Source: Ophelia neglecta (Eukaryota). From it: a stretch of DNA of 64,000 nucleotides. Each line of letters begins with the position of its first letter. Positions within the stretch are counted from its first letter, which is position 1. The position numbers were made by a program, and so were the translations under genes. The stretch covers positions 89,342,001-89,406,000 of the forward strand of contig OZ260663.1 in assembly GCA_965285935.1 (NCBI GenBank), read 5' to 3'. The notes below the pieces were generated by a model. The model was not told the origin of the DNA, made no database searches, and saw nothing but the letters and a program-made list of their open reading frames with translations. Shown here piece by piece: positions 19,918 to 49,223 of this stretch.

Positions 19918-22449
19918 ATGACGAATATACTGAACTCAACTAATATATATACGAGTACATTAAAACCTACTCCTCCATTGGACGAGAGTCTATTTGATCA
20001 TGTGCATTATGTGTCAGACATCAATCGGGTGAGAAAAGGCTGGGAGCAAAATGCGGCTTTTATTCCTACCACTTTTATATACGCTCTTACATTTGCGATA
20101 GGTGTAATTGGGAATGCATTAGTCATTTTCGCCCTTTTTGGAGACAGAAAGGCTCGTAATGTGACGTCATCCTTTTTAGTCAGTCTTGCTGTGGCAGATC
20201 TCGTGTTTCTTCTCGTTTGTGTGCCGTACGAGACAGCAGAATTGGTGGTCAAGGACCGGTCCACGGGAAAGGCATTTTGTAAACTGGCCCGGTTCACTGA
20301 AATGCTATCGGCAGCTGCGTCTGTTTTGAACCTTATAGCTGTGGGCATTGAAAGGTGAGCGCCTAATATTCTATGGCATAATCATTATTGGTGAATATAT
20401 GCGTCGTGTGTTTTGATATTACTGGCGTGATATGAATATTGCAGCTCACATGGAATGCTTGGATATTGAATTGTTGCTGCAAAATAATAAAATATATTGC
20501 CAAATAGTTTGCTTCATAGACTACCAGGTGCTTATTTAATTGCAAATTCGAAGCTAGTTTGTGGTATTTTCCCAGGCCTTTGAAGTATCTGAATATACCA
20601 ATGCAAAGCTCTTCTTACTTAATCTAGATAACAACCTTGATTCATTTAACCTTGATTCATACACACGTTTCTTTCCTTCAGGTACATCGTGATTGTTCAT
20701 CCAATCAAAGCTCGTTCTTACTGCACAATAGGCAAGGCTCGGAAGTATATTGCGGCAGTGTGGATAGCAGCATGCGTTCTTGCGTCACCAGCCCTGGTGA
20801 TCATGGTAATGTTATTAAACTATACACTTGGCAATTACACAGTGTAATAGTATTGTTGTAAAAATACATGCCAAGCCTCAGTTTGTTGTATTGGCCCATA
20901 GTAGGATTCTTAAAACCCAATGATGAAACATCTGTTAGCAATATCCCTTTGCTACTTTTCTTAACTGTGATTATACTCGAAAGTATACCGACTGGCAATT
21001 ATATTGTTATCCGTAACATATTAGTCAACTGGGATTGCGACATTTAAATCGTCGCTTCCATTCATCCTGTATGGTGTGTTTAATATCACCCTAGATAAGA
21101 TTAGATTTGTTTTTGTTCTAAGGACACTAAGACCAGGTTGTATTACGACGGTGAAGGTTTCTACGAGACACGTATGAACTGCAAAGACTACAATGTGCGC
21201 TCCAAATCCGACAAGATTCTGTTTGCGTGGTACCAGTTGCTTGTCATGTTTATACTGCCGGTAATCATAATGGCCATATCATACTCCGTGGTTATATACA
21301 CACTCTGGATCAGTAACAAGGAGCTCGCCATGATGACCAAAGTACATCGAACTAACGAGTAGGTTTTGCAATATAAGGTTACTAAGAGTGTTGTCCACGT
21401 TCGGTCAGACAGCTATTTGTATAAACTCACATAGTCATAGGCGTACTAGGACGATATTGTAAGTGTGCTGGTAAAGGATTTATTCATAGCATAGTTCGCT
21501 CGACATTTTTGATTGCAGTCGTGACATGGCCGTCCCTGCAGAGGCAGAGACAGGGGCCAGACTGACAGTCCCGGGTAGCAGCTCGACAAGACATACAAAC
21601 TCCGGCCTGCAGGATACACACAAAGACCACACGGCCGTTGTCAGGGAAGCAAGAAAACAGGTCAGATGCTTAACAGTGCTAGTATTAGGATGTTATACAT
21701 ATAGTGCAATCCTTTTGATATACAGTGAAACCTGTAAATTAAGTTCAATGATAAATAAATTCTGATTTAGACAGGTTTTTTTTACATTGAAATTATATAA
21801 TATGGTAATACTTAATGTTGTGATCTGACTTGGTAGGTGGTCTTCATCAAGAGGTGGTCTTTAAGGCACTTTTCACTGTATATAATAGCCAGATATTTCA
21901 CATATCAATTTAGATGTATTTTTCTTCTCCAGATAATAAAGATGTTGTTGGTGATACTTGCCATATTCTTCTGTTTTTGGGGACCTAAACTTGTTCTGAA
22001 CCTTATGAAGAAGCACCAGCTAAGGATTTTACACTCGAATGAGGCATTTTTTGCTATAGTGAGTATTTGTGGAGATCATTAAACTCTAAAAGAATCCTAA
22101 TGAAAGAGTTTTATTCGTAAGTCAAAATTGGGCTAATTCAATTATTCTGCAGTGATTGTACAAATAACAGTTCTTACTATTCTACTTTCAGTTATTTATC
22201 AACCTATTACCATTCATTCAGAGCTGCGTTAATCCATTAATATACTGCTACATGTCAAAGAACTTCAGACGGAGTATGCGCAGGTCGTTTCGAGAAAGAT
22301 GTCACTGTGACCCGGGAAGATGTTGCAGACGTCGTCATCGTGTGACACTCTCATATGACCTTGACCATACTTCACCTAACGGTATGAGTGATTCAGCAAC
22401 TGAAAGTGAAGGGGCGGGTAATGGCGCTACTGTTATGTCGGAATGCTGA
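19918..22449 (+). CDS. Class A (rhodopsin-like) neuropeptide-type GPCR, paralog A, ~440 aa, 6 exons
   Basis: Exons 19918-20354, 20682-20805, 21123-21358, 21519-21660, 21933-22058, 22192-22449; all introns GT-AG, phases 2,0,2,0,0; 1323 nt total. Motifs: TM1 GN, TM2 SLAVADL, C3.25, ERY, TM4 W, ECL2 Cys, TM5 FILP..Y, TM6 FWGP, TM7 NPLIY then MSKNFR. Resembles invertebrate QRFP/CCK/galanin-like orphan peptide receptors; ligand not assignable from sequence. Confidence 0.93.
21723..21878. mobile_element. Tc1/mariner/pogo-type MITE in intron 4 of GPCR A
   Basis: TA|CAGTGAAA...TTTCACTG|TA: terminal inverted repeats flanked by a TA duplication, with internal GGTGGTCTT repeats; 156 bp. Confidence 0.7.
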
Positions 22450-30292: not shown

Positions 30293-32997
30293 CACAAGAT
30301 ACGAGAACGAGAAAGATTAAAACAAAAACAGAAAACGCCAACATATCTTGTCACTGAATACACCCATATTATTATGCAGTATTAGATTATAATGCAATTT
30401 TGTCTGGAAAATTAATCAATAATTGAACAAAGTTAAAATTAAAGCAAGTTAAAGTTAAAGGAAGCTTGCCCAAAATGCAACAATATAAATTATTTATACA
30501 AATTTAAAATACACTTTTGACACTATTGACACGACATACTTTTTTATATACACGATTTTCACTACTTTTTTAAGTGCGTCTATACTACTGAATTGTGCAA
30601 TATCGAGAAGGGATATCGTCACACATACCCATTATACAAATTACACGCCTTAACGACCGACTCCGGGCTTTCGCTAATGGCCCTGTGCGCTAGCAGTGAA
30701 AGGCGATTTCCTTTACACCTTAGTTCGCATGGGAAGGGACCTTTCCGTTCACATGCCGATCGCCCAGTTTCTCTGTCACATAAGAAATCCATCACATAAA
30801 TGTTATGTGCTGTACGGTACATCAGACGGGAAACACTTTGAGAGCTTCACCAGATGATACAGCTGACTGATGATATGCCTAATGGAATTCATAACATTTT
30901 AGTATAAAAATGCATGTCCTAATGGAGTAGCGATAGAGAGTAGCCGTTGTGTCAGATCAGTAACAAAGCAAAGCAGGAACGAAGGGAATGGCTTCCCCCT
31001 TGAACTGTTTTAGAACAAAAAATAAGCAACATCAAATTTCATAAAATAGTAATTGAAGAAAAAAGACAATTTGTTATAGTAAATGAACTAAGTCACACAG
31101 AATTCACGATTAGCTTTGGGCCACATTCAGCGACTGGTCTGTATCTAAAGTCTCTCACGTTGCTTAATTATGCACACTGAAAGATAAGCTAACCAGACTT
31201 TCTTGTTGGTAGGCATATTTGTTTTGTTAAAACACTTGCGCCGCCTGCGCATGCGTTAATGCCGGTTCACGTAATAATGACGTATCTTTGACGAAATTTA
31301 ATGAATAGCAGGTAATTTTATGAAATATTGTTGCTGTCCAAATGGTTGTAAATCAATTTTATGGATTACAGTTTGAAATCGCTAGTCCAGCATTTTAGCG
31401 GTATGAAGTTATTGTTGTATGCGTAATGGCGTTGATTTATTCTTTTTTAATTAAAGATTAACACATTATTTTCCAACGAAAACAAAATTTATTTAACAAG
31501 GAACATTAACAAACCCCATTTTAACAATCATTGGAAGAAATGGGTTTAAATTGTTATGACGGTAGGCTGTAAATGTACTTTTAAGGTTTTGTTTGGCATC
31601 TCCACATGTTAGCATACCGCGGTTACGCCAAACTGATTGTCTGAATAAGTTTATTAAGCTTATTTGTTCACCCAATGAAATAGGCTTATTTTACACTGGA
31701 TCATAATAACAGCTGAATATGTACAAGACATCTACTGTTCGGGAAAGCTTCCAATGTAGCGACATGGTATAGACGTTTTTGAATTTGATAATAACATTTT
31801 GTAAACTACACTGTGCATGTAATAAGACACGAGTAAATTCGTAAAATATTATTTAAAACATCCCTACAGGACATATTTATATACCATACCTAGCTTTGGC
31901 ATAGTCAATTGCAAACCTTTTCTAACCTGACAAATAATCTATCAGCGATAATCCAAACACTTCTTTGGCAGCTCTATATATATTTCAGAAATAGAAATGA
32001 ACAGTACAAGTTTTGGTCAGGCAAATACGCGTAAGTCCACGGGAGCATAATTGTTTTAGAGAATTGTACGGACACGGCAAATGCGGTACACGATGTTGCC
32101 TGTGATTTATGTGGTGAGTTATAAAGCAAATTAGATATGAAACGTAAAAAGGCTGAGGTTCGTAACATTGAAGCGTGTATTGTTATTACTTGGGTGATGT
32201 TATGTTTAATATATTTTGTTATATTGCAACTAGCAGCGCCCCGCCGATGACAGGTAGTCTTATTTTCGTACATGCAAAGTGAATCACTTCTTGTGCGAAA
32301 GAAAACAATCACTTTGTGAAAGTAGCCTGAAATAAGAACCTAGATTTATTGTTGGTTTTTCCCTGATATTCGTAAAAGGTAAAAATCTGACATTATTGCG
32401 GCACTTTTATCTTGGCTAGTCCCCATCCTCGCGAATATTAATTACCGTTATAGTATATTATTTTAGGATAGAAGCATATGAATTTACAATTTTAATGTTA
32501 CAAATGATACGTACGAAAATACATTTTCAGAAAAGATTCAAAAAATATATCAAATGCAACACACATAGCTTATAAGGTTATGAAGGAAAACATGCAACAG
32601 CACATGAAAATATACAATATTTAATCATTTTTTTAATTACTCATTCAAAACGTGCCTGTCTCCTTATCACTGAGAGCGCGATGTTCATGACTTCACAATC
32701 CAATTCAAGCGTTCACCGAACATAAACTTACGTTACCCTGATCCACTGTCGACAGTTACATATATATTATAAAACAATAGAATTGCACATTACGTTTGCA
32801 ATTTAAATACATTGTCAATTAACAAACACATTGAAGTCCAAACAATGATCATGAGTGGGTGTTTTACCGTTCGTAACAAATTCCCTTACTTGGTCATTCT
32901 TTGCCATTACATAGGGCAATGTAGTTAACACGACACAAACACCTGACATATATTGACGAGACGGTATGACTGATAAAGTAGTGGGACGATGTACCAT

Positions 32998-35900
32998 TTA
33001 ATAAGCTAATGCACAACTTTCTTTACAGTCTAAGGTCACAGTTGAAAAAGACGTTGATCCATCAATTCCACTGAAGGAGGTGCTTCGTGCCATACCATTT
33101 TGCGACCGCGAACCCATGTCAAAGTTCAAGGTCGCCAAACTAGGGCGTCTGCAGTACTTGGTAGGGTCACAGTTGCAATTATCAATGAACGATGTGCGCA
33201 TGCTCCTGCGGATGTTCTTCGACATGAATGAGTATATTATAGGGTTTATACAGCTTTGAATAAAGGGCAGCAGATGAATCAAGAGCTGAAAAGTTAATTA
33301 TTCAAATGTAACCATCCTAGATATGCAATAGTCTTCTGAGATATAACACAAAGTTTGGTCTCGCTAGATTGGTCGAATATATACAACATTTGCGAACAGT
33401 TACTTTGGCGGGGCCCAGAAAGGCACTGTGAATGATTCGCTGTATATAAATCGTTAATGAGTTATAAAATATAACCATAACAGGGTAAGATATCAGATAT
33501 TGTATATAGTAACTATATTATAACCATGATGGTTCGCCATTATTATTATTATTATTATTATTATTATGATCCAAAATGCTTCAAGCGTATGTAGTATGGT
33601 CAACGCGTGTCTTTTCATCAATGTCAGTACCAGTTTGGGTCCCCAACAGAAGAAGAATATCCCAATGATTGTCAACAGCATCTTTATTACCTAATCAATC
33701 ACCAGCGTGCGTTTGATTATAATGAGTGTATACGTCACTTTGAAACTAATTTAAAAAGTAACGTCATAGAAAGCCTTATGGCATTACACTCCTTTTCCAT
33801 TTAAATACTGGTATATTATTTGTTATTGTCAAAAAAGAGTAAAATACATGATGACATGAGTATTGTCCTCTCGATGATCCATGATAATCTGATTTACACT
33901 GTTATATAAATCCTTTGGGGATTCGTACCTGTTTTCTTGCCTCCCTGATCACGGCGCTGTGATCCCGGCCTGAATCATTGGATGACATTCCAACCTTTCC
34001 GACAGCTTTAGAACTCGACACTGTAAGCCTTTGTCTGCTTTCGTCAGACTCTTGAGCTACTGTGGTGTTGCTAGTTAAAGATCAAACTTACTTTGTACAT
34101 ATGATAACTAACGCCATCTTCTTTTATAATAATATTCTACTTTGATAATACTTTGTTTATTCAGAATTTAACTCTTTTTGTCTGGAAAGTTATAGCTCAG
34201 TGAAAATCTAAGACAATAACCTTGTGCTCTGAGTCATTTCTGCGAGCATCTTGTTGCTGACCCATAGGACCCGGATGACCATTGCGTAACAGACGATCAT
34301 GACAAACACCGGAAGTATGAACATTACAAACAGCTGGTACCAGGCAAACAATATCCGGTCAGTGTTAGACCTAATGTAATTTTCTGCGCATATCATAATA
34401 ACAACACTGCTCTGATTGTTATAGAATTGAGTCGTTTCCGTGTCCTGCCAATAGAAGATTGGGCCTTAGATACACAATAATAACCAGGACCGTGATTGTG
34501 GATAACGGCACTCAAGCACGACAAACAAGACAACACAGGTTTTTACACTTCACACGAGTGGATATGTATTAAATATAAAGAATTAGGCAGACAGCAGATG
34601 TAAAATACCGGTTATCAAGGGAAAATATACCAATGAAAGTCAGGCCTACATATAGACAAAACTAGACAAACAAATGATTATACTGATATTGAACACATGT
34701 ATCTATAGTCAATTATAAATTTGTTTGTTTTTAATACATACTCATCCAACATAGCTCACTTCAAGCTCCCGCCCTAAAACCTAAACATTACGTTGCTATT
34801 AGGAAGAACCATTATAGCAAAAGAGCGTGTTGTGTTTTCATCGCAGCATCTCAAAAACCAAAATATATTGTGCTATCGGAAAAGTTCAAAGAGGACTATC
34901 AAAGCTGAAAGTTGTATTGCTGAAGCAGTATTATCTAAACAGAATTTATTCAATTTAGTTCTAAGTGTGTGTACTGTGGTTCTGGAGAGAGCTAACATGA
35001 CGTTAAGTCCTACATTTACAGGTTAATGTTTGGGCCTTTGAAACTAGTCATAAAAATGCTAAGATGTAATTCAAATAACCGACCACGAGGGAAACATTTC
35101 ATATTGAGTCAGGGGGGTTCGCTTTGGTACATTTATAATACCATCATTTTATGCTGACATTTAACATGCAAATATATCTTACCCCAGGAAGCAGGATATA
35201 TGCTTGTCCGCATTGGCCCCTTGTACGGCCAATAGGTTGGGTAATTTGGTTTACACTGCAGTATAAAACGAAGACTTACCATAATAAGCAAAGCTGGGGA
35301 AGCCAGAAGAAGGGACGCGACCCAGACACATACAATGAACTTCACGGATTTCCCCATAGTACAATACAGTCGTGCTCTCATTGGGTGGACAATCACTATG
35401 TATCTATAAAATGTGGGAACAGAAATATGCTGTTAATGTCTTCATATTAGATATGTCAATCCTTTTAGACGGAACTTTGTTTGATGCTATGTGCAGGGTA
35501 ATGTAAGTAGAATTTTCATTAGTTATATCAGTGTACACTTTAACTTGAAATAATTTGTCAGAAAGGTTTAATGCCGTTAAACATCAATTCCTTAATCTTT
35601 TATTTTTATCAAATTGTATTTATTCTTTTTTATAGATCCTATATCAAATAAGCTGGCTATTGTTTAAACGCGTAGGCTAGGCGGAGGCGGAGGTCATGGT
35701 TATTTCTAAAAAGCACAGACCAAAAGATTCGTCAGCAAGGCTCGGGTAAATCGTGTGGTTCATTTTTACGGTTAGGAAGAGGGCGAGGGCAAGGTTATAG
35801 ATGTCAAGTGTTGTGGCATAATCTCGGAATTCACATTCACCAGGCTCCGCGCCTCCGCTTTTAATCAAAAGCCAAATAGCCAATTAGTTCAATCACGACC

Positions 35901-37524
35901 CACCCACCGTCAATGCTAAGGCTGGAGAAAGATGTCGACATTTCATAATACGAATAGTCCTTAAGCGACGACTTCAAAACTTATACTGGATTGATAATTT
36001 GTTGTAGCAGCTATGTGGCTAAAAGTAATATTCGGCTCCCTTCATGCAACATATAAATTCAAAATAAGCGTAGCGTTGGCATTCAGTATGTGGCTGTTCA
36101 TGAACGGTAGTAAAGAGCAAATACATGACATGAGAAAGGGATAATACGGCTTTGTGTTAACGGCGAAAGCGAAAGCTTAGGCGAAAGGACTGGAAAACAA
36201 TAATTTAAAATATCAGTTATTTTATCACCCAACCCTAACCCAGACATCTCAATTTTGTTTCTGATATGAATGGGCAAGGGTAGGCTTATTATTGTGTTCT
36301 TATTAGCTCAATCCATGCGGCTTTCGCCGAAGCTTTCGCTTTCGCCGTTAGCACGAAGCCGAAAGTACTTGATAGAAAGATAATCACATATGTATTGGAT
36401 GAAATAAGTTTAGAGTGGTATTCTAGCCACCTAGCTGAAACACTATCCTTATCCCTAAAGGTGCGTATCATTCCCTCGTTTCTTGTTTTTTTTTCGCGTA
36501 TCGAACTTTACAACGTGCTGTTTTGCTATGGACTTCTTACATGTTCTTCATACATTTGGATATATCTAAGCTTTTTGTAAGGAAACCTGTCAAATATAAC
36601 CCATCGTCCCACTTAGAAACAAGACGCTGGCAAACATTGCCATTGGCGGCTGACGCACCTATAGAAAGGCCCCTTATTTAGTGTCATGCTTGGTCGCATG
36701 CGCAAACACATAAATAATTACTAGTATCTATATATCTCATTGACACGGAATACTTTCCTAATAAAAAGGAGAGGGAATGGTGTGGGATTTAATGGCGTTT
36801 GTTGATTAGTTTGCTGATGCCTAGTTTGACGAACCATGTATTGTTGAGCAACATAAGACATCGATATTAACATTATTTTCGTCAGGTTGTGGCAAGCTAT
36901 GTGGTTATTGAAGCGCAAACTGTATATTCTGATAAGTTTGTACTTTGTTGTTGGATTTAATGAATAAATATGCAGGCCTGATTCCAGCAAGAAACCATGT
37001 AACGGGAATCACCTCAAGCTATACCTTTGAAGTTAGATTCTGATTTTATCGTTGTAAGCAGACCTTTTAAATTAGATGCTAACGTGCCAAACGTACCTTT
37101 CAATACTGACCGCTGTCAGATTGAGGACAGATGCCACAGCTGACAGCATTTCCACGAATCTAGCCAGTTTACAAAGTATTCTACCGCCGGTCCAATAATT
37201 CAGGAATTTCTCTGCTGTCTCGTACGGCACACACACGAGAAGAAAAACGAGATCAGCAATAGCGAGGCTCACCAGAAACGATGACGTCACATTGCGGGCC
37301 TTACGGTCACCAAGCAGGCCAAAGATTACTAGTCCGTTTCCGACTATGCCCAATGTGAAAGTAAGTCCGTAGGTAAGTATGCTAGGGATGAAGGTAATAT
37401 CATTATGCCAATTCGCTTTGACACCACTCAAGTCTTCTAGATAATAAACATTGTCATACATGCTGATCCCCTCTGCGGTCGTCATATCCTGCTTGGTCTC
37501 GATTGTGGATTGGACATCCATCAT
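32998..37524 (-). CDS. Class A neuropeptide-type GPCR, paralog B (~443 aa ancestral), exon 5 interrupted by a 40-bp insertion (possibly a disrupted allele)
   Basis: Exons 37524-37097, 35403-35280, 34444-34221, 34070-33929, 33690-33525 (126 nt plus 40-nt insert), 33285-32998. Exons 2 (124 nt) and 4 (142 nt) equal paralog A in length and all phases match. Motifs SLAIADL, YWTGG..CKL, SIERY, FAWYQL.VMFILP, FCWGP, QSCINPIIY, MSKNIR. Confidence 0.88.
33531..33570 (+). mobile_element. 40-bp insertion GGTTCGCC(ATT)n with ATGAT target-site duplication
   Basis: ATGAT at 33526-33530 and 33566-33570 brackets GGTTCGCC plus nine ATT units; removing 40 nt restores a 126-nt exon equal in length to paralog A exon 5. 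Confidence 0.6.
35675..35860. mobile_element. Short inverted-repeat element with GGTTAGG-like core (HINE/MITE-like)
   Basis: GCGGAGGCGGAGG and CTCCGCGCCTCCGC arms around GGTTAGGAAGAGGGCGAGGGCAAGGTTA; intron 1 of GPCR B. Confidence 0.35.
36147..36361. mobile_element. Fold-back non-autonomous element with 41-bp inverted arms
   Basis: 36147-36187 CGGCTTTGTGTTAACGGCGAAAGCGAAAGCTTAGGCGAAAG is the reverse complement of 36321-36361 with 3 mismatches; central CCCAACCCTAACCC; intron 1 of GPCR B. Confidence 0.75.
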
Positions 37525-39020: not shown

Positions 39021-39558
39021 TCATTTTATGTTTAAGTAAAAAAAAAGTTCGTATGTAGATTAATTACACTTGCGCTGACGCTCGCTTAGCTGGTCTCATT
39101 ACGCATACTGTCATTTATCTCATTTTTCCAGAAATATATATAATTGAAATAATTGACCATGTAAATAGTTTAACAGACATAAAGTATGTAAAAATTATGA
39201 TTTTTATATTTCAACCATATATAGACATGCCTATGATATGCATATGGGAATGCCCCTATGAAGGAAAACGATATAATATTCTAATTATTCTGGTTATTTT
39301 CCAAGAAACAAGCTATAGGATTTCAGCTGATTTTGAAGTCTTGGCTTTTGCAGTAGATCATTGTACTGGCCCGTTGTCAACACGCAATTTTTTTGTCTAA
39401 TTGTCTCGGAATAAATGATATAAAAGTCATTGACCACTGTTATTTTTGTATGCAGTACACCCACACGTAATATCAAAGATCATTGCGTATGATTGTTAAA
39501 CTATTTCCATGGAACACAATTGGTGTTGAGGCTTGTAATTTGACCAGTTAAGCATAGT

Positions 39559-39667
39559 TTGTTTAGCAAAATTCAGATTAGCAAGCGTGTTCCCTTCTAC
39601 ATGTACACCATAATTGGTTTAGCATAATTCAGATTACCAAGCATGTTTTTCTTCTGCGTGTACACCT
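39559..39667. repeat. Diverged tandem duplication (2 x ~56 bp)
   Basis: GTTTAGCA(A/T)AATTCAGATTA(G/C)CAAGC...TGTACACC occurs twice head to tail. Confidence 0.75.
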
Positions 39668-41038
39668 TAAACATGACTTGATTAAATACACATGTTCTAA
39701 TATTACTACCTGCTCGTTATACTTATATGTATGTTGTTTATATTATGTCGTATTGTAATGCATTTAAATCCTAAAATGTCGACTCATGTCATCCCGGAAA
39801 GCGGTGTAACTGCAATTATTCAGATGCAAATTAGCATAGAAATACATTCCACAGATCACATTCAAATTGGTCTATTGTACAGTTTATGCCTTAACATAAA
39901 TAAAGATATTTGAGATGAATAAATATTTCCTCGGTCGTAAACAGCTACCAATTATATAATCGCAATTAATTTGGATCATCGGTTTATGTTGGTATAAACA
40001 ATGTACTGTCTTTATAAAAGTCTATTGTTTGTGTGAGACCTAGTATTGGATATTCTTAGCTTGATTTCCAATAGATTAAGCTGTGCATTAATTATGCAAT
40101 TCAACTTTAGATCTAGGCATGTTTCCACTGGGATGCGGCGTCTTGAGTATTTATTTCCACAAATATATTCGATAAACGTCATTCGTTCGTTCAGTGTTGT
40201 GAAAGTCCCCTGTATTTCACACAATAATTGGGAACATGGTTGAAAACTTTAATGGAATATATTATACGTTGGATTCATAGCTTGAATAAGTTTATTTATT
40301 ATCAACGTTAAATGATATAAAAAAATCAGTGTTATATATTTATAAAGGTGTATAATTCAACATGAATAAAATATAATCAAAAGTTGAATTACATTTTAAA
40401 TAATACACGAGGAGTTACACATGTTCATGGTGGACCTTCCATGATCAGTCTCGAACCAGAACATTATATAAATTCATCTCCTACATGATTCATAGGATAT
40501 TACTTATCACTTGCTACTTTGTGTTGTACATTCCGGCTAGCAAGGGGTATTATACAAAATAAACATATTTAACATATATCTTATCATGACATAATATTAG
40601 TAATAGTTTAAACGCTATGAATGATACAACATATATTAAACACTAATCATGGTGTAGACCGCATCCAAAAGAAGCCACTTGTTATCGACCACAAGGAGGA
40701 GATTTCGGATATCCGTCGGACAAAAACATAAACACCAATTGCAAAGATGGCAAGCAAATGATCACGTATATTAATAACAATGAATTACTTTTCTTATGAT
40801 TAGTCAATTGATATACACTGAAAGGTATATGAGGGGGGGAAATAAGAGGAATGAGTTTTCCAATATTATTATAAAGAGCAACTATTAAAGAGTAGGTAAA
40901 TTGTTGCCTTTGTTCGCTGTATATATTTGAAGCAAAACTTAATGAATAGTCCATCATAGCATATTATCGTCACCAATATCTTCATTTTGACACATTCTCT
41001 TGGGCTTCAGGTCCAGATTTCATGTCTTCATCATGTAC

Positions 41039-48943: not shown

Positions 48944-49223
48944 GGTCAACGAGCTACGACCGTTAATGCCGAAACAAACATGTCAAAGTATGGGGTCAGA
49001 GATGTATCGGAACTATTAACCGTGGAAGTTCCTTTGATAAGTATCGCTATCTAGGTGGGTGGATATATTTCATTCTAAATATGGGTCAACGAGCTACGAC
49101 CGTAAATGCCGAAACAAACATGTCAAAGTATGGGGCCAGAGATGTATCGGAACTATTAACCGTGGAAGTTCCTTTGATACGTATCGCTATCTAGGTGGGT
49201 GGATATATTTCATTCTAAATATG
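48944..49223. repeat. Recent tandem duplication, 2 x 140 bp
   Basis: Units start GGTCAACGAGCTACGACCG at 48944 and 49084; about 3 substitutions between copies. Confidence 0.92.

What the first reader, a model, noticed from the sequence alone, without database searches (positions are those of the whole stretch)
33508..33570. 40-bp (ATT)n-tailed insertion at the exon 5 end of GPCR B: frameshift or poly-Ile rescue
Seen: where paralog A has its donor (after codon 42 of exon 5), B reads ATA ATA... with no GT. GGTTCGCC(ATT)9 sits between two ATGAT copies, and deleting 40 nt yields ...TGG ATC ATG|GTTATA and exactly 126 nt. Using that donor now gives 166 nt, a frameshift that loses TM7/NPxxY. A weaker in-frame donor ATA|GTTACT (exon end 33514) would instead add 17 residues including a 10-Ile run before TM7. 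Inference: an extremely 5'-truncated retrotransposon insertion, probably recent or polymorphic. A -1 change would restore the frame, but 3-nt microsatellite slippage would not.
Basis: partly seen in the sequence, partly recalled or inferred. Interest (0 to 1): 0.7.

Follow-up and report, generated by a model that had tools for sequence, protein, structure and literature searches.

The report
Repeat insertion breaks a receptor gene
A 40-base insertion, likely the bare tail of a jumping gene, sits at a splice junction of one of twelve neighbouring peptide-receptor genes and likely disables that copy, which is an ordinary kind of gene loss.

Summary
An 8-nt head plus (ATT)9 (33531-33565) lies between two 5-nt direct repeats at the end of exon 5 of GPCR B. 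Nine of 11 paralogs have a 126-nt exon 5 and none lacks a GT there. Contig ends from three runs of one sample fit the insert exactly, show no empty site, and point to both haplotypes carrying it, so it is neither an artefact nor clearly new. The head is not a LINE 3' end: head plus tail occurs once in the assembly. A young (ATT)n-tailed LINE family does exist, so a tail-only insertion with filler bases is likeliest (about 0.55); local repair is the rival. The displaced donor frameshifts the gene (395 aa, no NPxxY). The in-frame donors (+17 aa, or +9 aa through a GC donor) are equally weak and put the TM6-to-NPxxY spacing at 58 or 50 residues, against 40-45 in relatives. B was under purifying selection until recently. 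No transcript was available. Verdict: probable young loss-of-function allele in a birth-and-death cluster. One oddity: the poly-Ile run is hydrophobic enough to stand in for TM7. Interest is low.

The parts
33531..33538 (+). 8-nt head of the insert; with the tail it is single-copy in the assembly; probably filler (5' extra nucleotides)
33539..33565 (+). (ATT)9 pure array; read on the gene strand as nine Ile codons
33526..33530 (+). left copy of the 5-nt direct repeat (target-site duplication)
33566..33570 (+). right copy of the 5-nt direct repeat; its first two bases continue the ATT phase (3' microhomology)
33519..33527 (-). displaced original donor (exon end 33525): 166-nt exon, frameshift; 4 of 9 consensus matches
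33508..33516 (-). in-frame GT donor (exon end 33514): +17 residues; 4 of 9 matches
33532..33540 (-). in-frame GC donor candidate (exon end 33538): +9 Ile; 3 of 9 matches
33525..33690 (-). GPCR B exon 5 (TM6, ECL3, first turn of TM7) including the insert
32998..33285 (-). GPCR B exon 6 (rest of TM7, NPxxY, tail, stop); open in the ancestral frame
33929..34070 (-). GPCR B exon 4
34221..34444 (-). GPCR B exon 3 (weak 7tm_1 match)
35280..35403 (-). GPCR B exon 2
37097..37524 (-). GPCR B exon 1 (7tm_1, E 8.8e-20)
21933..22058 (+). paralog A exon 5, 126 nt, GT donor directly after codon 42

Best explanation
A 35-base piece flanked by a 5-base duplication sits between the last codons of exon 5 and its splice donor in GPCR B; it is likely the bare (ATT)n tail of a LINE joined through filler bases, and it likely abolishes signalling by this receptor copy. 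Shown: the anatomy, the conserved 126-nt exon in paralogs, the frame arithmetic, a young (ATT)n-tailed RT-coding family in this genome, and purifying selection on B. Inferred, step 1: a LINE endonuclease nicked the site, the tail primed on two bases of microhomology, reverse transcription stopped inside the tail, and the 5' end was joined through 8 extra bases, leaving a 5-nt duplication. Inferred, step 2: splicing now uses the displaced donor (frameshift, 395 aa) or fails (intron retained, 371 aa). Both products lack NPxxY and helix 8. Inferred, step 3: the allele drifted to at least appreciable frequency because the gene is one of twelve tandem paralogs. Odds: real insertion 0.95; loss of signalling 0.8; LINE tail as the source 0.55.
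For: Anatomy. Exon length conserved in 9 of 11 paralogs. An (ATT)n-tailed family has 38 exact 3' ends, control 0; in the 30 copies fetched the best pairwise identity is 97.7-100%, tails are 7-30 nt, and 20 of 30 end in the same phase as this insert; it has an RT match (E 5.4e-5). 32 of 87 (ATT)8+ arrays abut a LINE-type end motif, against about 9% background for that test. L2/CR1 duplications peak at 3-5 bp and about half of ZfL2-2 copies carry 5' extra nucleotides (PMC4245944), often copied from flanks (PMC4760211). Tail-only inserts are described for L1 (PMC3812793). CWxP-to-NP spacing is 40-45 in 11 of 11 paralogs and 6 of 8 listed homologs, against 58 or 50 for the in-frame options. Contig ends match the insert allele. 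B has dN 0.12 against saturated dS with its nearest paralog and no excess of changes. A neighbour is already broken.
Against: No LINE body is present, so the source cannot be shown; the head matches no family end. The one family tested shows no clear duplications: 4 of 17 truncated copies have a 5-nt repeat and 0 of 17 a longer one, against 11% in mismatched controls; its shortest copy is 116 nt (the pattern could not find tail-only copies). No second tail-only insert with a duplication was found among 19 isolated arrays. The donor matrix cannot separate the frameshifting donor (0.22) from the in-frame ones (-0.31; 0.46 ignoring the C), and 3 of 46 paralog donors lack both -1G and +5G as 33514 does. 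No other lesion has accumulated in B's coding exons, which also fits continued function. No transcript was examined.
Confidence: 0.55

Rival explanations
1. Same damage, different origin: a staggered break was repaired by templated end joining (polymerase-theta type) that copied short local pieces and slipped on ATT, with no retroelement involved.
For: The first 4 head bases are the reverse complement of the 4 bases before the left repeat (0.0034 for that exact register, post hoc), forming a 5-bp hairpin. The head has no source elsewhere. The intron beside it is AT-rich.
Against: By a looser test a 4-mer shared with the flanks arises in 75% of random heads. Flank-templated filler is also expected at LINE 5' ends (PMC4760211). 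Nine perfect units are hard to build from a site with no pre-existing repeat (inference).
Confidence: 0.28
2. Functional rescue: the in-frame GT donor at 33514 (+17) or the GC donor at 33538 (+9) is used and gives a working receptor with a poly-Ile extension at the top of TM7.
For: Both are in frame and score like the old donor. Exon 6 and the other exons are intact, B shows no excess amino-acid change, and the allele seems to be on both haplotypes. Two paralogs tolerate +2 and +4 residues in this loop.
Against: Spacing of 58 or 50 is outside the 40-45 seen in paralogs and homologs. In the +17 form the poly-Ile window (hydropathy 2.8) outweighs the remaining TM7 (1.7), which would likely invert TM7 (inference). 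GC donors normally need a strong context (recalled); this one has 3 of 9 matches.
Confidence: 0.12
3. No insertion: the Ile codon expanded in place and the original donor decayed to the GC at 33538; the downstream repeat copy is a coincidence.
For: The GC site follows a Met codon as in several paralogs, and differs from the nearest paralog's donor hexamer by three transitions. The donor at 33525 is weaker (4 of 9) than all 46 paralog donors (5-8 of 9).
Against: It needs a 6e-4 coincidence and birth of a nine-unit array from no proto-repeat inside a constrained exon.
Confidence: 0.05
4. Assembly artefact.
For: The letters inside the repeat were not displayed; the runs are one sample, possibly the assembly's own source.
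Against: Left records end at the equivalent of 33565 in 3 of 3 runs and right records start at 33541 in 2 of 3, exactly where other (ATT)n loci break a 31-mer graph of the insert allele. No gap or joint was listed or dropped.
Confidence: 0.03

Closest known systems
5'-truncated L2/CR1-clade LINE insertions with 5' extra nucleotides (ZfL2-1, ZfL2-2; PMC4245944, PMC4760211, passages read)
   Same: 5-nt duplication, short extra bases at the 5' junction partly matching the flank, simple-repeat tail.
   Different: No LINE body at all, so no family can be assigned; the local family tested did not show clear duplications.
Pure poly(A) inserts from severely truncated L1, a route of microsatellite birth (PMC3812793, passages read)
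   Same: Only the tail is integrated, giving a mature microsatellite at once.
   Different: Trinucleotide tail, short duplication, 8-nt head, and a coding-exon target.
Truncated 6TM GPCR splice variants (PMC3477067, abstract and passages read)
   Same: Loss of the TM7 motif and tail; such forms are mostly non-signalling and often dominant-negative in vitro.
   Different: Here it is a genomic allele, apparently with no intact copy of B in this individual, and a poly-Ile segment could fill the TM7 position.
Class A peptide receptors (Pfam 7tm_1); homologs auto-named allatostatin-A-like, QRFP-like, CCK-A-like; nearest solved structures galanin, NPY and CCK receptors
   Same: 7tm_1 match above cut-off in exon 1; ERY, CWxP and NPxxY motifs; conserved loop spacing.
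   Different: Names disagree, so the ligand is unknown; this genome has 12 tandem copies; B's NPxxY is out of frame through the old donor.

Membership tests
LINE insertion by target-primed reverse transcription | Short target-site duplication | tested here: met
   5-nt direct repeat whose removal with the insert restores the 126-nt exon
LINE insertion by target-primed reverse transcription | 3' simple-repeat tail of a type carried by a resident young LINE | tested here: met
   (ATT)n tails of 7-30 nt on a 97.7-100% identical RT-coding family, 38 ends
LINE insertion by target-primed reverse transcription | Sequence before the tail matches the 3' end of a family | tested here: not met
   Head plus tail is single-copy; the one other locus sharing 6 head bases is not a repeat family
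LINE insertion by target-primed reverse transcription | The resident family makes duplications of this length | tested here: inconclusive
   4 of 17 truncated copies with 5 nt, 0 of 17 longer, control 11%
LINE insertion by target-primed reverse transcription | Empty site in another allele or ortholog | tested here: inconclusive
   No empty site in 3 runs of one sample; no ortholog above 64% identity; paralogs show the empty-type exon
CR1/L2 clade (for the resident family) | RT phylogeny places it in the clade | not tested
   Only a partial RVT_1 match below the curated cut-off; the clade label is recalled from the look of the 3' end
Class A GPCR | 7tm_1 domain and TM3/TM6 motifs | tested here: met
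   71.7 bits against cut-off 30.5 in exon 1; ERY and CWxP in the model
Class A GPCR | NPxxY in frame after TM7 | tested here: inconclusive
   Out of frame through 33525, in frame through 33514 or 33538; donor use unknown
Unitary pseudogene | Disabling lesion in all transcripts | not testable with these tools
   No transcript was examined
Unitary pseudogene | Neutral decay (further lesions, raised dN) | tested here: not met
   No stop or frameshift in the other five exons; branch dN 0.050-0.072 for B against 0.045-0.087 for its sister; power is low if the allele is young

The most novel reading that the evidence does not exclude
The insertion swapped TM7 instead of deleting it. Every likely transcript (frameshifted or intron-retaining) has its stop in or before the last coding exon and encodes TM1-6 followed by a poly-Ile helix. 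The product would be a stable seven-pass, NPxxY-less receptor that binds peptide or dimerises with its paralogs as a decoy: a membrane helix born in one step from a retroposon tail and carried on both chromosomes.
Probability: 0.07. Interest if true: 0.6.

Novelty: new member of a known kind. Interest (0 to 1): 0.24.

Why it matters
Most likely it is one more gene loss in a tandem receptor cluster, useful as a clean example of a microsatellite born inside an exon with its duplication still readable, and as a warning for annotation, since a gene caller could pick an in-frame weak donor and report an intact receptor. It would matter more if the poly-Ile segment really replaces TM7 in a stable protein, because that would show a de novo transmembrane helix made by a 40-base insertion and give a natural decoy receptor to test.

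Tried and rejected
Head as a LINE or SINE 3' end: rejected. The C8 locus sharing 6 head bases as a family or donor: 2 matches only, one a 40-nt low-complexity piece. Alternative acceptors that repair the frame from 33525: none among 11 AG sites tested against all GT/GC donors. Upstream in-frame donor 33631: lowest score (-2.4), and it removes 22 codons. A second haplotig in the assembly: only one 100% exon-5 match among 12. A close ortholog: best identity 64% among 10 hits (weak evidence by the tool's own note). No RNA holder listed. A direct view of the letters inside the repeat in the runs was not obtained, so the junction evidence rests on record lengths. No fold was run, because the spliced isoforms are not contiguous in the window. 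Earlier scan findings: none. Literature searches for a matching case gave 0 papers, no listed paper with 'polyisoleucine' among 12 and nothing on this receptor cluster; the library lacks most subscription papers, and PMC1716264 was not held. One search's exon-6 translations used a start one base off and were replaced; one search failed on a wrong option and was replaced.

Full report
Observation. The window holds a six-exon GPCR gene (B) on the minus strand, 37524 to 32998, and a paralog (A) on the plus strand. At the end of B's exon 5 an 8-nt head (33531-33538) and nine ATT units (33539-33565) lie between two copies of a 5-nt repeat. After codon 42 there is no GT. A search of the own assembly with exon 5 gave 12 matches, all on C5 between 89.2 and 95.5 Mb, only one at 100%. 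Exon 5 is 126 nt in 9 of the 11 other genes and 132 or 138 nt in 2, always with GT. Without the 40 bases B's exon would be 126 nt and end Trp-Ile-Met, as its nearest paralog does. The chance of the restoring 8-mer within 30 nt of the array is about 6e-4.

Is it real, and is it polymorphic? Three runs hold the stretch; all are one sample, kept as contigs, and may be the assembly's own source. The 45 letters at the repeat were not displayed. No gap or joint was listed, and none was among the dropped rows. The left records match through 33531 and run 34 letters further in 3 of 3 runs; the right records begin 36 letters before 33577 in 2 of 3. A 31-mer walk along the insert allele, using the other (ATT)n loci fetched, predicts breaks at exactly 33565 and 33541 (k=31 assumed from the 61-nt bubble records). 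The sample is heterozygous on both sides (33476; 33747-33809). In run X3 the record that joins both 33476 alleles and crosses the left junction has depth 14.2, against 7.9-10.4 expected if one haplotype were empty. So both haplotypes probably carry the insert, and it is old enough for a variant 50 nt away. Against this: contigs show presence, not absence, and run X2's right record begins at 33566, the first base of the right repeat. That could be a variant at the last tail base, an error branch or a rare empty site; it is unexplained. Other individuals were not available.

Origin. Head plus tail occurs once in 762 Mb. Shorter or mismatched patterns gave 4, 11 and 2 places, and no family ending in this head. 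The genome does have LINE-like elements with such tails. One family has 38 exact 3' ends (control 0); of 30 fetched, best pairwise identities are 97.7-100%, tails are 7-30 nt, 20 of 30 end in the same phase as this insert, and long copies carry an RT frame. Of 407 (ATT)8+ starts I examined 87 from the first 100 listed (C1 and part of C2): 32 abut a LINE-type end motif on one strand or the other, 36 lie in AT-rich low-complexity DNA and 19 are isolated (the motifs are recalled; background about 9%). Published work gives 3-5 bp duplications for L2 and CR1 and extra 5' bases in about half of ZfL2-2 copies (PMC4245944), often copied from the flank (PMC4760211), and notes tail-only L1 inserts (PMC3812793); I read passages of each, no supplements. 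A tail-only insertion with filler fits all of this. Against it: only 4 of 17 truncated copies of the local family showed a 5-nt repeat (control 11%; 13 of the 30 were long copies and left out), and 0 of 19 isolated arrays resemble this one. The head's first four bases mirror the flank (0.0034 in exact register, but 75% by a loose test), which fits either filler or pure repair. I put the LINE tail at 0.55 and local repair near 0.3.

Consequence. The displaced donor gives 166 nt, a frameshift and a 395-aa product; retention gives 371 aa; neither has NPxxY. Of all GT/GC donors against 11 acceptors, only 33514 (+17) and a GC site at 33538 (+9) keep the whole exon in frame. A matrix from 46 paralog donors (55 possible; 8 exons not found, 1 broken, B's own left out) scores the three at 0.22, -0.31 and 0.46, each above only 4 of the 46, so it cannot say which is used. 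The old donor is itself weaker by consensus match than all 46, so it was weak already or has decayed. The protein argues against rescue. CWxP-to-NP spacing is 41-45 in 11 of 11 paralogs and 40-42 in 6 of 8 listed homologs with CWxP (one partial model 35, one frameshifted), against 58 and 50 here. The poly-Ile window has hydropathy 2.81, equal to B's strongest helix and above the sister's native TM7 (1.78). In the +17 form it would likely take the TM7 slot and invert the real TM7 (inference). In the frameshifted form it could stand in for TM7. The stop lies in the last coding exon, with polyadenylation-type hexamers at 32637 and 32625, so junction-dependent decay would not be expected (recalled). 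Truncated GPCRs are mostly non-signalling and often dominant-negative in vitro (PMC3477067, passages).

Age and context. B against its nearest paralog has dN 0.12 and saturated dS over 283 codons; branch dN is 0.050-0.072 for B and 0.045-0.087 for the sister over nine outgroups, with 26 against 21 assigned changes. The other five exons are open. B therefore worked for nearly all its history, and the lesion is young in neutral terms; this test has little power for a young allele. The cluster turns over: the gene at C5 89.248 Mb is a partial copy of a neighbour with no exon 1 and a frameshift in exon 2.

Comparison and verdict. The gene is a class A peptide-type receptor of uncertain ligand. The insert works like a severely truncated LINE insertion but cannot be filed under a family, because the family-end test was not met. 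It is a new member of a known kind: a short insertion that probably disables one paralog. Four searches found no matching case, in a library that lacks most subscription papers. The boldest reading left open is a stable decoy with a poly-Ile seventh helix (0.07). Interest 0.24.

Noticed in passing
G000:C5:89244000-89249200 (L107): Partial duplicate of the paralog in L105 (85-97% DNA identity) that begins after exon 1 and has a 2-nt frameshift in exon 2: a second broken gene in the cluster.
   Followed up: yes
G000:C5:89.2-95.5 Mb (L006-L017): Twelve tandem members of one orphan peptide-receptor family; B's nearest relative lies 1.9 Mb away, not next door.
   Followed up: partly
P0007: A brachiopod homolog annotated as isoform X2 changes frame at about the same exon 5/6 junction and lacks NPxxY.
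   Followed up: no
L069-L098: Young LINE family with (ATT)n tails, an RT frame and a G-rich 3' region; 38 exact 3' ends.
   Followed up: partly
L031, L033, L035, L037, L038: A 338-bp repeat (96-99% identical) ends at an (ATT)n array in 5 of 8 loci; in 4 of them a LINE-type end follows on the other strand, suggesting a composite element.
   Followed up: no
window 33100-34000: Ten differences between haplotypes or from the assembly in 901 bases; the one in coding sequence (33259) is synonymous in the ancestral frame.
   Followed up: partly
window 36147-36361: 41-bp inverted repeat pair in B's intron 1, possibly a small non-autonomous transposon.
   Followed up: no
window 48944-49223 and 39553-39670: A 140-bp tandem duplication (97%) and a 56-bp-spaced direct repeat.
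   Followed up: no
window 33566: Run X2's right-hand record starts exactly at the right repeat copy, unlike X1 and X3; cause unknown.
   Followed up: partly
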